NCBI GenBank assembly: GCA_964016885.1
Contig: OZ024743.1
Span: forward strand, 56,978,001 to 57,042,000
Direction: 5' to 3'
DNA: 64,000 bases
DNA from: Eledone cirrhosa
Taxonomy: Eukaryota
How positions within the stretch are numbered: position 1 is the stretch's first letter; the number at the start of each line of letters is the position of its first letter. The notes beneath the pieces were generated by a model. That model made no database searches, was not told the DNA's origin, and was given only the letters and a program-made list of their open reading frames with translations. Shown piece after piece: positions 38,444 to 62,904 of the stretch. A program made the position numbers and the translations under genes.

Positions 38444-38494
38444 AGATTCTACAGGACTAGAACTGTTTCATTCTTTAGAAATCATCAGGAATCT
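38444..38494 (-). ncRNA. Hammerhead ribozyme motif
   Basis: Minus strand: AGATTC CTGATGA TTTC-TAAA-GAAT GAAA CAG-ttctagtc-CTG TA GAATCT. Related copy on + at 48896-48942. Confidence 0.7.
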
Positions 38495-38960
38495 GGCTTT
38501 CCAAATGCTTCTATCTCGGAGCCCCTCCTGAAGGACGCAATTACCTTTGCCAGGAATTTTACCACTATAACCGATGCTGAGCAAGATGTTATCCTCCATG
38601 CCCGTAAGACCTTCCTATACCACGATGGATCTTACTGGATCAACAAGAAGTCTCAGACCCCATTTGACGTCAGCATGGGAGCGAGTGACTCGGCTGAAAT
38701 TAGCGAAGAACCTCTTTACTGGCCTAACCGGAGGTTTATACCGAGACGACGGCCTCTTCGCCCTGCACAAGGTTAACCCCAGAACCACCGATGGGTTTCA
38801 GAGAAACTTAAGCTCGTTCTTCCGTAATCTATGATTTAGTATAACTATAGAATCTAATATGACTAGAGCCAACTTTTTAGATGTCACTCTCGACCTAGAT
38901 ACTTCCTTCTATTACCCGTACCACAAACGTAATGAGTCCCTTAGATATATTAATTTTCTT
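38495..38960 (+). pseudogene. Internally deleted PLE reverse transcriptase fragment
   Basis: VILHARKTFLY, FDVSMGASDSAEI, GGLYRDDGL, NFLDVTLDL and YYPYHK parallel the RT at 59.6-61 kb. Broken by a frameshift and stops. Confidence 0.8.
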
Positions 38961-39532
38961 AAACTTTTCTTAAACTTTAATCTGTTATTTTAATATATAT
39001 ATATATATATATATATATATATATATATATATATATATATATATATATATATATATATATATATATATATATATATATATATATATATCTATATATATAT
39101 ATATATATATCTATCTATATATATATCTATATATATATATATATATATATATATATATATATATATATATATATATATATATGTGTGTGTGTATATATAT
39201 ATGTGTGTATATATATGTATATATATATGTATATATATGTATATATATGTATATATATATATATAGAACATTAGTCTACGGCTTCTTTTATACCATAAAC
39301 GTGGTCCTCTATTTGTGTGTAATTGTTTTTCACCGCTCCTATTAATGACGTATTATATTCGTTTTTTTCCCGTTCTTTACCAGGGAACGTTTCCACGAAC
39401 CAAAGTATCGTCTTCCTGTCTTCCTCCGATTGCAACGTTTTTTGAAATATCCACTTCTGCGTTCACAGATTGACTTTGTTAGTTTCAGAAGATCCCGTTA
39501 AGGGTGAAAGCAGCGATTCTTTGCTTAAACTT

Positions 39533-59597: not shown

Positions 59598-62085
59598 ATG
59601 CTAACTAAAGACTACCTACCTATATCACTCAAGAACATCCCAACCCCATCCAGGACTACTTATGAGAAATTACTGATAGCTAGCGTCAACTCCTTCGTTA
59701 AGCGTATTAGATGGCGCACTTTCCACTTCGATAAGAGAAATAAGAAATCAACCACGGTGTCCCCCAATAATAAATTCGGTTTTAAAACCTATAGGAGCCC
59801 GCCCCATAACTCCATGCTAGATAGATTTGAGAATGATCTCCTATCACTAGTAAGGAATATTAAGTTTAAAAACCCCCATAGGAATAGCAACAAATTCCGG
59901 ATGAAACTGGAAACCTTAGTTAAGGGCTTTAACGATAAAAGAGATATCCTGGTCACCTCGGATAAAACCAGAAATATTTATAGCTTAAATTATGATACGT
60001 ATCGCAGGTTTATATACAATGAATTAAATAGAAACTATAAAAAGACAACAAGCGCCAACCTAGATGAAATTAATAAGGAAGCATGCGCCATAGTGGATAA
60101 ACTAGGCCTGGAAAAGTATACCCAACCATATACCCCTAGGCAACCCAGGTTCACCCTTAAAGACCATAAGGCTGACTTCATTAGTAAACCCTCTGTTAGA
60201 TTAATTAGCCCATCGAAGTCAGATATAGGGATTATCAGTAAGAAAATGTTAGAAGGCGTTATACCTACCATCAGGAGGAAAATAAATCTAGAGCTATGGG
60301 AGAATACGGAAGAGGTTTTGAAATGGTTCTCAAGCCTTAGCAACCATAAATCCCTTAAATTTATACAATTCGACATCGATGCGTACTACACCTCAATCTC
60401 CCCCATACTCCTTAATAAGGCCCTAATCATGGCCATGCAGAAAAGTGACCTCACTAGGTCCCAAATTGATGTCATTCTTGCGGCCCGGAAAACGATAATC
60501 ACATTTGAGGACGAATTGTGGACCCGCAAGAATACGCCCAATAACTTCGACATCACAATGGGATCTAGTGACTCTGCACAAGTAACGGACCTGGTAGGAT
60601 TGTACCTCTTAAAGGAGTTACATGAGACATTACCGCACCTGAAGGGCGGCTTATATCGTGATGACGCCCTCTTAACTCTCGAGTATAAAAAGTGCAATAT
60701 AGAAAGAACTAGGAAATAGTTGCGTAGGTTCTTTAAAAACTTTAATCTAAGTATTACCATAGATGCAAATGACAAAACAGTAAACTTCCTAGACGCCACC
60801 CTAGACCTAGAAACTAAAACATTTGCACCCTACCATAAACCTAATGATAGACTAACATATGTAAACGCCAGCTCCAACCACCCCAAATCAGTCCTAAATG
60901 CTATTCCCAAGGGGTCTCTAATAGAATTAGCAGACTGTCCTGTAATGAGAGTATCTTCAACTCCAATGCAGAGTATTATGACAAGGCCCTAGCAGAATCT
61001 GGTTACGGGAATAGATTATCATATATACATAAGGACTCCCAAACCATAAGTGTGAAACCTACCAACATAATCACACATAGTATGGCCACAAAGCCTAACC
61101 AACGTAGAGGCAAGAATAATAGTAAGAACCCCAATGGCGGTAACCCAGCTAAATGTAAAGCACGTAGAGACAATACTAGAGTCCCTCACCACAACTCTAA
61201 AGCAGCAAATGATCGTGCCATGAATATAAACCATCCGGGCATAAGCAAAACAGACAACGCCACTAACGTTAATAACGGAACCCTACAAAATAGTACGCAC
61301 AGTAATGAGACTCACCCCACAGATAAGAAAAATAGAAGAAGGAAAAACGTATTTTAACCCACCTTTTAACTCTGAGGTCCTCACTAACCTCCCCAGAGTA
61401 TTCTTCTCATTATTGGAAAAAAACTTCCCACCAGGCAATAGATATCGCAACATAATTAACAAAAACGTGATTAAATTATCCTATTCGACCACACCTAACC
61501 TCGCATCACACCTAGCACGCACGAACATTAGGAAAACTAGGGAAGGTTTCGAAACAATTAAAATGGCAGTTAACCACCAGCAACCGACTACACTGGAAAA
61601 TAGGCAACATAATAGCATCACTGAGCCATCTAATGATATAGCGGCACCTAGTGATAATGCTAGTAACCAAAGTTCGGGAGGTACGCTAACTGATCGAACC
61701 CGCAGTTGCAATTGTAGGCAGAGTATTAACTGTCCCCTAAAGGGGGCTTGCCTCTTGAAAAACATCGTATATGCATGTGACGTAACCACACACAACTCTA
61801 CCAAAACATATATAGGATCAACGTCCAATACATTTAAAACGAGATATAACGCGCATATGTGCACATTTAGACATGATAGACATAAGAATGCCACCTCACT
61901 GGCGGGATACATCTCCTTTAAAAAAAAATAATAATACCCCATACAAACATTTTTGGAGGAAGCTTACTAGATCCACGCCATACCGACCGCAGAGCGGGAG
62001 TTGTGACCTGTGTTTACTGGAATGCCATGCCATAATACACTCTAAACTGAACCTGCTTAACAGGAAATCGGTGGGGGTTGCGTAA
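59598..62085 (+). pseudogene. PLE RT + GIY-YIG polyprotein with an in-frame stop at 60717 and frameshifts near 60915, 61350 and 61925
   Basis: SLKNIP, SDKTRNIY, TLKDHK..F...P.VRLISP, FDIDAYY, FDITMGSSDSAQ, LYRDD, NFLDATLDL, YHKPND, FNPPF, CNCRQSINCPLKGAC, IVY...YIGST..FKTRY..H, CDLCLLE, LLNRKS. Confidence 0.9.
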
Positions 62086-62859
62086 TATATGTTACGTCTA
62101 TGTGCTATGTTTAAACACAAACGCACATGACCGCACAGATGAGCAATGGACCATGTCACGTGGGTTGAACTTGCAAGTGAATTGAAGGATGTGTAACTCT
62201 GATATACAGATTATTTATTATTAAGATGTATAAACTTGACATAACTATTATCATCTTATATTCTCTCAACTAATCACATTTGATTATATTTCTCTATCCC
62301 GTTTTCTCCCCCCATATTTATAATATTTTTATTTGACAAAATCGGTTTTTTTACATTGTGTTTTTCCCTTCTAATACTTGCTTATATTTTTTTTATATAT
62401 TCTCTATATATTTTTTATATATATATATTTTTTTATCTTTATTCTTATTTTCACTCTTATCCTCCTTTATATTTTACCTTATTCTTACTTTTATACCTTA
62501 TTATAGTGTAATCTTCCCCATGCCTTATTATACATTATTAATTATAGATTATTATTATTACTCTTATCCCATTTCTAATTACCTCATGTACTTTCTCCTC
62601 CGTTATATATATATTGTATGCCCTTTGTGTGTGTGTAGCCTCTGCACCCTACTATCGACGCCACCCCATCTATGGCTCCACTAACCACTCGACTCCCGGG
62701 AATGAATATGACCACAGCTAGTAAACAAGGACCCACACCCCACCCTCCCGCACCAAAATTAGACTTATCGTCCCCTGCTTTTGCTCTTTACTCTCTAAAC
62801 TCTTTGTTCTTGAATGTTTGGTTGGTAGAGTCCATAACACCAATCAAACCCCTTTTATA

Positions 62860-62904
62860 GCTCTGAAGAATCCTACGGTTACGTAAGGAAGAAACATTGT
62901 AAGC
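62860..62904 (+). ncRNA. Hammerhead motif in the 3' pLTR
   Basis: Identical to 59330-59374. Confidence 0.7.

What the first reader, a model, noticed from the sequence alone, without database searches (positions are those of the whole stretch)
38444..62904. Dense cluster of hammerheads from many unrelated families embedded in (TA)n tracts
Seen: motifs at 38444(-), 41108(+), 43698(+), 45031(-), 45977(-), 47260(-), 48896(+), 55063(-, degenerate), 56439(-), 59330(+) and 62860(+). That is 11 in ~25 kb from about 7 families with different stems. Several lie in short non-coding modules with no ORF, bounded by (TA)n and repeated directly or inverted. Known: PLEs favour microsatellites and carry minimal hammerheads, and retrozymes are non-coding hammerhead retroelements. 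Inference: this is a PLE landing hotspot and may include undescribed non-autonomous, retrozyme-like families mobilised by PLE RT.
Basis: partly seen in the sequence, partly recalled or inferred. Interest (0 to 1): 0.75.

Follow-up and report, generated by a model that had tools for sequence, protein, structure and literature searches.

The report
Hammerhead retroelements piled into TA repeats
This stretch holds at least ten families of jumping elements with predicted self-cutting RNA motifs: six are ends of Penelope-type retrotransposons, and four are protein-free repeats whose identical two-ended insertion pattern suggests the Penelope enzyme copies them, likely from RNA circles.

Summary
All 11 motifs are present; 8 pass a strict hammerhead descriptor (shuffles give about 0.07). 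I found three more. Two (45031/45977, 422-bp unit, 9,578 exact core matches; 47260, 578-bp unit, 39 matches) are ORF-less closed units, as are two missed families (49359, 42307). Their arms end at two fixed sites in (TA)n. All 30 two-armed insertions with both ends at these sites have one short and one long end, as the PLEs here do. 126 of 141 arms run through the cleavage site, which points to PLE copying of circular (or uncut multimeric) RNA. The 'hotspot' is modest: the genome averages about 1 hammerhead per 10 kb (about 300,000 extrapolated), and this patch is about four-fold above that, tracking TA tracts. No RNA evidence could be had, and the partner PLE is not identified. The class is known; this scan has reported the same picture, including the 422-bp family, on other DNA of this genome.

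The parts
38428..38500 (-). Family A pLTR end with intact type I hammerhead (38444-38494); inverted arm of a truncated PLE, short end at (TA)n
   Evidence: A pLTR beside the same RT in 6 of 11 other loci
38500..38945 (+). RT fragment of the family A PLE (Hydra-type motifs in relatives)
   Evidence: tblastn
39267..39535 (+).
   Evidence: core in 18 of 18 pattern matches; endonuclease ORF upstream in 4 of 15 other loci
39570..41300 (+). Family B truncated PLE: RT remnant 39577-39972, GIY-YIG 40140-40904, 3' hammerhead 41108-41150
   Evidence: (PF01541 E 6e-4, below Pfam's cut-off)
42000..42680 (.).
   Evidence: three tandem motifs in L287; one short and one long end here
42985..44191 (.). Family C two-armed PLE 3' end; CCGAUGA hammerhead 43698-43817 with ~100-nt helix II; a SINE-like piece sits in both arms
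   Evidence: (ORF upstream in 8 of 15 other loci)
44817..45185 (-). Family D retrozyme arm (422-bp unit), hammerhead 45031-45072, short end (unit position 219)
45231..45480 (-). Fragment of family A pLTR without the hammerhead
45703..46318 (.). Family D two-armed insertion: minus arm 45703-46107 with hammerhead 45977-46018 and long end (275); plus arm 46101-46318 cut by another repeat
47079..47634 (-). Family E ORF-less element (578-bp closed unit), hammerhead 47260-47360 with 10-bp helix I and 5-bp helix III, short end (191)
47675..47825 (-). Family P 5'-truncated end holding only the 3' half of a hammerhead; also at 54352 and 54578
48480..49036 (+). Family A pLTR with long end; hammerhead 48896 lacks helix I
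49112..49755 (.).
54811..55260 (-). Family F PLE 3' end with CAGUUGA-core hammerhead-like motif 55063-55098 and short inverted arm
   Evidence: (ORF upstream in 3 of 13 other loci)
56288..57283 (-). Family G inverted pLTR arm with long end; hammerhead 56439-56483
58572..62956 (+). Family G full-length Hydra-type PLE (pLTR, broken RT/GIY-YIG ORF 59586-61931, pLTR) with hammerheads 59330 and 62860, short end at (TA)n
   Evidence: clade features from PMC8557442 section 11

Best explanation
The region is a TA-microsatellite patch holding six families of Penelope-like retrotransposon ends and four protein-free hammerhead repeat families (non-LTR retrozymes), and the latter are likely copied by a Penelope-type RT/endonuclease from circular unit RNAs. 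Shown: the families, their links or lack of links to RT/GIY-YIG ORFs, closed 422-578-bp units, two fixed 3' ends in (TA)n, one short plus one long end per two-armed insertion, and arms that run through the cleavage site. Inferred: tandem copies are transcribed, cut by the hammerheads (probably as dimers where helix III is a short palindrome) and ligated into circles; the endonuclease nicks both strands of (TA)n; each DNA end primes on one of two UA-rich sites 56-118 nt apart downstream of the cleavage site; the two cDNAs are joined head to head. Each insertion leaves (TA)n on both sides as a target for the next, which would build the clusters. The mobiliser is most likely a Hydra-clade PLE, but no specific partner was identified.
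For: Closed ORF-less units: D 422, E 578, I 522, M 496 bp, longest Met ORF 51, 74, 27, 90 codons, GC 33-38%. Same-sense PLE protein within 600 bp upstream of an arm: D 0 of 35, E 1 of 27, I 1 of 12, M 0 of 14 loci, against C 8 of 15, H 4 of 15, F 3 of 13. Arm ends at two fixed sites: 119 of 138 arms not cut by the locus edge; 30 of 44 two-armed loci have both ends at these sites, all 30 short+long, none short+short or long+long. The autonomous families do the same: A ends +22 and +98 (3 of 3 resolved two-armed loci), G 99 bp apart in this window. PMC8557442 describes inverted arms, a one-sided tail and (TA)n targeting for PLEs. 126 of 141 arms cross the cleavage site, 64 exceed one unit, 0 of 118 D/E/I arms start within 5 nt of it. 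Subfamily alleles are shared within a locus (D 410 of 506 pairs, 198 of 239 across opposite arms, 12% between loci; E 72 of 88, 27% between loci; pairs are not independent). 81% of 86 sampled motifs have (TA)5 within 300 bp downstream against 22% of control points.
Against: No transcript, cleavage or circle was observed. Uncut multimeric RNA from a homogeneous source array explains crossing arms and shared alleles equally well. Loci were fetched with queries spanning the hammerhead, which inflates the share of crossing arms. Within-locus divergence is only modestly below between-locus divergence (D 2.8% vs 4.6%, E 3.2% vs 4.1%, I 1.5% vs 1.9%), and locus-private variants are almost never shared (4 of 146, 3 of 62, 0 of 32). 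No DNA similarity links D, E, I or M to any PLE module of this window. E shows two cleavage sites in tandem in only 1 of 42 arms. Flanks were only 1.5 kb, and most DNA searches returned the 40 best-scoring copies. Tails here (56-118 nt) are longer than the published 30-40 bp. U4A, U4C and A6U cores depart from the consensus and may cleave poorly.
Confidence: 0.7

Rival explanations
1. Same elements and same PLE mobiliser, but the template is a linear uncut multimeric transcript (or cut units joined by template jumps), not a circle.
For: Crossing arms and shared alleles fit any homogeneous multimer. PLE-type minimal hammerheads cleaved weakly in vitro (PMC4209133), and 8 of 9 Xenopus dimers did not cleave (preprint). 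Chimeric junctions occur (L241/L289, L274).
Against: E has only 1 of 42 arms with two cleavage sites, so few multimeric sources exist, yet 12 of 42 arms exceed one unit. 5' starts are not significantly enriched just after the cleavage site (11 of 141 vs 7.3 expected, p=0.11). Circles are shown for coral, mussel and axolotl retrozymes (PMC7229834).
Confidence: 0.2
2. All modules are truncated pLTRs of autonomous PLEs, and the tandem units are pLTR-pLTR partial tandems or local satellite expansions; no independent retrozymes.
For: True for A, B, C, F, G and H. One E copy adjoins a Hydra-type RT in the same sense. Only 1.5-kb flanks were examined for most loci.
Against: In D, E, I and M the sequence upstream of the hammerhead wraps back into the unit's own 3' part rather than into an ORF. 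D has 9,578 and I 3,319 exact core matches dispersed over the genome. Fixed ends and inverted arms are not produced by unequal crossing-over. For E, 28 loci were examined against 39 exact matches genome-wide.
Confidence: 0.06
3. This locus is a special landing site (chromatin or sequence) beyond its TA content.
For: 11 motifs in 24.6 kb: P=0.0008 under independent 10-kb draws, 0.011 among the TA-richest quarter; 0.46 motifs per TA block against 0.21. The left 38 kb of the window has 0 and the flanking 200 kb has 8.
Against: The region was picked after the fact. 6 of 80 random 10-kb pieces hold 4-5 motifs; motif count tracks TA tracts (rho 0.61); flanks of hammerhead elements elsewhere hold 91 other-family motifs in ~357 kb, 2.5 per 10 kb.
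Confidence: 0.04

Closest known systems
Metazoan non-LTR retrozymes (Cervera and de la Pena 2020, PMC7229834; passages and parts 3-4 of 6 read)
   Same: Type I hammerhead in each unit of a low-GC, ORF-less tandem repeat; self-paired predicted circles (z -3.1 to -8.7); U-U mismatch at the base of helix II as in axolotl HHR_Amex2; PLEs in the same genome.
   Different: Units of 422-578 bp against ~170-400 nt; mostly dispersed 1-2-unit insertions with inverted arms and two fixed ends in (TA)n, which the parts read do not describe; circles not tested here. The paper names PLEs only as a strong candidate mobiliser.
Li, Clavereau and Pollet 2026 preprint (10.64898/2026.07.22.740005; parts 1-3 of 5 read)
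   Same: Retrozymes as non-autonomous PLE derivatives; unit lengths 51-972 bp.
   Different: Their evidence is co-occurrence and pLTR homology in vertebrates, with no mollusc sampled. Here no pLTR homology was found; the evidence is the shared insertion footprint.
Hydra-clade Penelope-like elements (Craig et al. 2021, PMC8557442; passages and section 11 read)
   Same: Families G, A and H show DKT and/or CxCX5C motifs, a C-terminal GIY-YIG, hammerheads in pLTRs, (TA)n targets, inverted arms and a one-sided tail.
   Different: Tails are 76-99 nt rather than 30-40 bp; G has RWR for RWK; family B has a CX4CxxC linker (not Hydra); no tree was built.
Minimal PLE hammerheads (Cervera and de la Pena 2014, PMC4209133; parts 1-2 of 4 read)
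   Same: Short palindromic helix III (34 of 86 sampled motifs), many families per genome, inverted pairs 100-700 bp apart, and a proposed circular template.
   Different: G10.1-C11.1 is rare here (9 of 86). Family-fixed U4A cores were not found in the passages read (U4A has 0 occurrences in PMC3088659). The estimated load is ~300,000 against ~9,000 in Xenopus and 126,247 in axolotl.

Membership tests
Non-LTR retrozyme (D, E, I, M) | Type I hammerhead in each unit | tested here: met
   Descriptor hits; M has a U4A core in 15 of 15 hits
Non-LTR retrozyme (D, E, I, M) | Head-to-tail tandem units with at least two hammerheads (D, I, M) | tested here: met
   D 9 of 56 arms, I 4 of 20, M in L287; 422- and 522-bp spacings
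Non-LTR retrozyme (D, E, I, M) | Head-to-tail tandem units with at least two hammerheads (E) | tested here: inconclusive
   Closed unit, 12 of 42 arms longer than a unit, but only 1 of 42 with two cleavage sites
Non-LTR retrozyme (D, E, I, M) | No protein ORF, GC below 45% | tested here: met
   Longest Met ORF 27-90 codons, GC 33-38%; PLE ORF adjacent upstream in 2 of 88 loci
Non-LTR retrozyme (D, E, I, M) | Self-cleavage of the transcript | not testable with these tools
   Needs in vitro transcription
Non-LTR retrozyme (D, E, I, M) | Accumulation as unit-length circular RNA | not testable with these tools
Non-LTR retrozyme (43.0-44.2 kb module, family C) | No linked RT/EN ORF | tested here: not met
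   PLE coding sequence directly upstream in 8 of 15 other loci
Penelope-like element (A, B, C, F, G, H) | RT and C-terminal GIY-YIG ORF ending at a hammerhead-bearing pLTR | tested here: met
   Pfam RVT_1 did not hit these RT pieces and GIY-YIG was below cut-off, so assignment rests on motifs and tblastn
Penelope-like element (A, B, C, F, G, H) | Partial tandem or inverted arms with a one-sided tail | tested here: met
   G in the window, A in 3 of 3 resolved loci; not counted for B, C, F, H
Hydra clade (G, A, H) | RWK, DKT, CxCX5C linker, (TA)n target | tested here: met
   G: RWR, DKT, CxCX5C; A relatives: DKT, CxCX5C; H: CxCX5C (definitions)
Hydra clade (G, A, H) | Placement in the RT phylogeny; absence of CCHH | not tested
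   No reference set on hand
Type-SGC permuted hammerhead (PMC10085705) | Blocks in S-G-C order | tested here: not met
   A strict all-permutation scan found only type I order in the window and in 800 kb of sample; that scan is insensitive (1 of the window's motifs, 7 in the sample)

The most novel reading that the evidence does not exclude
In this genome PLEs and their protein-free parasites share one copying route: a ribozyme-cut, ligated RNA circle is primed twice, from both nicked strands of a TA repeat at two fixed sites, giving the tandem, inverted and one-sided-tail structures long unexplained in PLEs; this has laid down about 300,000 hammerheads, more than any count in the papers read, including high-copy families fixed for U4A cores.
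Probability: 0.4. Interest if true: 0.78.

Novelty: new member of a known kind. Interest (0 to 1): 0.52.

Why it matters
Which enzyme spreads animal retrozymes, and how PLEs make their tandem, inverted and tailed insertions, are both open in the papers read. Young high-copy families with a strict short+long end rule name the priming sites to the base and give small, protein-free substrates for an in vitro PLE assay. The genome-wide load (about one motif per 10 kb) means such elements probably make up much of the unclassified repeat and microsatellite fraction here, and sense-strand copies in introns could cut host pre-mRNAs (untested).

Tried and rejected
Rfam: no hammerhead family among 143 matches; all were TA-repeat artefacts. 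Expression: no RNA holder listed for family D; four runs of unknown kind and two guessed-RNA runs were contigs only, the latter matching 31-37-base TA-like pieces; no conclusion drawn. RNA-editing scars (lead from e1-8803865, another family): no A>G excess in D, E or I (D 8 A>G vs 14 T>C of 171 private changes). Private-variant test for a single template: swamped by post-insertion mutation. Excess of 5' starts at the cleavage site: not significant. Partner search by DNA similarity to the window's PLE modules: no hit. The chimeric E locus L289 could not be tied to a full PLE through a second copy. Permuted hammerheads: none with a strict, insensitive scan; family P is a truncated type I motif. 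An ATGCAAAT octamer lies 111 nt before the D cleavage site; a snRNA-type promoter was not tested. Supplements of the papers were not opened; supplementary files S1-S2 of PMC8557442 may list octopus Hydra families, and bioRxiv supplements are closed.
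Full report
Setting. The window lies on contig C4 of a 3.0-Gb animal genome. I take it to be octopus-like from recalled repeat content; no call names it. The left 37 kb holds LINE ORFs and a 65-bp satellite; the right 26 kb is rich in (TA)n.

Observation. A type I descriptor recovers 8 of 11, and the region gives 9 strict hits against 0.07 on average in 60 shuffles. The three misses are 43698 (U4C core, long helix II; same core in 13 of 15 other loci), 55063 (CAGUUGA core in 11 of 11 matches) and 48896 (helix I deleted). 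Three further motifs were found: 49359(-), 39486(+) and 42307(-), the last two with U4A cores fixed in their families. Rfam finds none of them.

Which families are PLE ends. I searched the genome with each module and examined 1.5-kb flanks. Family A (38444, 48896) sits beside the RT seen at 38500-38945 in 6 of 11 other loci, once in the same sense directly upstream. Family B (41108) ends an RT/GIY-YIG remnant in the window. Family C (43698) has PLE coding sequence directly upstream in 8 of 15 other loci. F has it in 3 of 13 and H in 4 of 15. Family G is a full-length broken element with two pLTRs and an inverted arm. G, A and H carry DKT and/or CxCX5C motifs, which PMC8557442 section 11 gives for the (TA)n-targeting Hydra clade; no tree was built.

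Which families are protein-free. D (45031, 45977) is a 422-bp unit, E (47260) 578 bp, I (49359) 522 bp and M (42307) 496 bp. Upstream of the hammerhead each wraps into its own 3' part. The longest Met ORFs are 27-90 codons. A same-sense PLE protein hit lies within 600 bp upstream of an arm in 0 of 35 D, 1 of 27 E, 1 of 12 I and 0 of 14 M loci. For D, the 30 pattern loci were merged to 16 insertions; one E locus (L253) gave no alignment above threshold. Exact 20-base matches number 9,578 (D), 3,319 (I) and 39 (E).

Insertion footprint. Counting from the predicted cleavage site, arms end at two fixed sites: D 219/275, E 191/307, I 61/179, M 178/258; 119 of 138 arms not cut by a locus edge end there. 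Of 44 two-armed loci, 30 have both ends at these sites, and all 30 have one short and one long end; the other 14 have one end elsewhere or off the fetched DNA. The autonomous families behave alike: A ends at +22 and +98 (3 of 3 resolved loci) and G has ends 99 bp apart. PMC8557442 describes inverted arms and a 30-40-bp tail at one end as PLE features not seen in non-LTR elements. The end sites are TA-rich, so they could pair with the target (inference).

Template. The priming sites lie 22-307 nt downstream of the cleavage site, near the 5' end of a cut unit RNA. Yet 126 of 141 arms continue through that site and 64 exceed one unit; none of 118 D/E/I arms starts within 5 nt of it. A cut linear monomer cannot give this without jumps; a circle or an uncut multimer can. 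The queries spanned the hammerhead, so the crossing share is inflated. Subfamily alleles are shared across units and opposite arms (D 410 of 506 pairs vs 12% between loci; E 72 of 88 vs 27%), fitting one template per insertion. Against: within-locus divergence is not far below between-locus, private variants are rarely shared, and there is no A>G signature. Circles are shown for other retrozymes and were proposed for PLEs (PMC7229834; PMC4209133).

Partner. No DNA similarity links the four units to the window's PLE modules. One E copy (L241/L289) is fused without a TA tract to a Hydra-type RT fragment; the insertion's other side is an inverted hammerhead-bearing repeat ending at its long site, while E ends at its short site. 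This fits a template switch in one reaction, but it is 1 of 27 loci and a later deletion would look the same; a second copy did not settle it.

Density. In 80 roughly evenly spaced 10-kb pieces from 19 contigs the relaxed descriptor found 86 motifs, against 5 after shuffling: 1.1 per 10 kb (bootstrap 0.8-1.4), about 300,000 genome-wide (2.2-3.9 x 10^5; extrapolated). They form 36 sequence clusters, 13 with more than one member. The finding's region has 11 in 24.6 kb, about four-fold higher; 6 of 80 pieces hold 4 or 5; the flanking 200 kb holds 8 and the left 38 kb none. Counts track TA tracts (rho 0.61), 81% of motifs have (TA)5 within 300 bp downstream against 22% of controls, and flanks of such elements elsewhere hold 2.5 other-family motifs per 10 kb. 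The patch is in the upper tail of a general clustering.

Literature. Retrozymes with type I hammerheads and their proposed PLE mobiliser are in PMC7229834; a 2026 preprint argues PLE origin from pLTR homology in vertebrates. An Octopus vulgaris repeat annotation does not contain the word ribozyme (PMC13282606, passages). Five searches listed no paper on cephalopod retrozymes or on the short+long end rule; subscription papers and supplements were not seen. Earlier notes of this scan report the same picture on other DNA of this genome; I had reached the family assignments and fixed ends before reading them, and they are not independent support.

Verdict. Real and well above chance; six PLE families and four retrozyme-like families in a TA-rich patch; new members of known kinds, with a footprint that makes the copying mechanism testable. 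Interest 0.52.

Noticed in passing
G000:C1:43219500-43229400 (L289; L241): A family E copy is fused directly to a Hydra-type RT fragment; the insertion has E's short end on one side and another family's long end on the other. Possible template switch that would name E's partner.
   Followed up: partly
G000:C2:364975500-364982500 (L290; L274): A family I insertion is joined without a TA tract to an inverted family B PLE fragment.
   Followed up: partly
window 39486, 42307, 43701, 55063: High-copy families are fixed for non-consensus cores (U4A in H and M, U4C in C, CAGUUGA in F); 15 of 86 sampled motifs genome-wide have U4A or U4C, a few probably chance hits.
   Followed up: partly
L135:4985-5640 (G000:C2:92.5 Mb): Three tandem hammerheads about 310 bp apart: a further retrozyme family not in this window.
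   Followed up: no
window 45140-45147 region (family D, minus strand): An ATGCAAAT octamer lies 111 nt upstream of the D cleavage site; possibly part of an internal snRNA-type promoter (idea recalled, not tested).
   Followed up: no
window 41735-41983 and 46680-46870: A repeated 3' end abutting (TA)n with no hammerhead core found; family unassigned.
   Followed up: no
window 43105-43300 and 43860-44070: A SINE-like element is present in both arms of the family C insertion, suggesting it was carried in the copied RNA.
   Followed up: no
window 24322-37010: A 65-bp satellite of about 195 copies, 95% matched.
   Followed up: no
window 17242-20892 (-), 13483-15693 (+), 9889-11988 (-): Long non-LTR RT ORFs (Pfam RVT_1), the first an open 1216-aa frame.
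   Followed up: no
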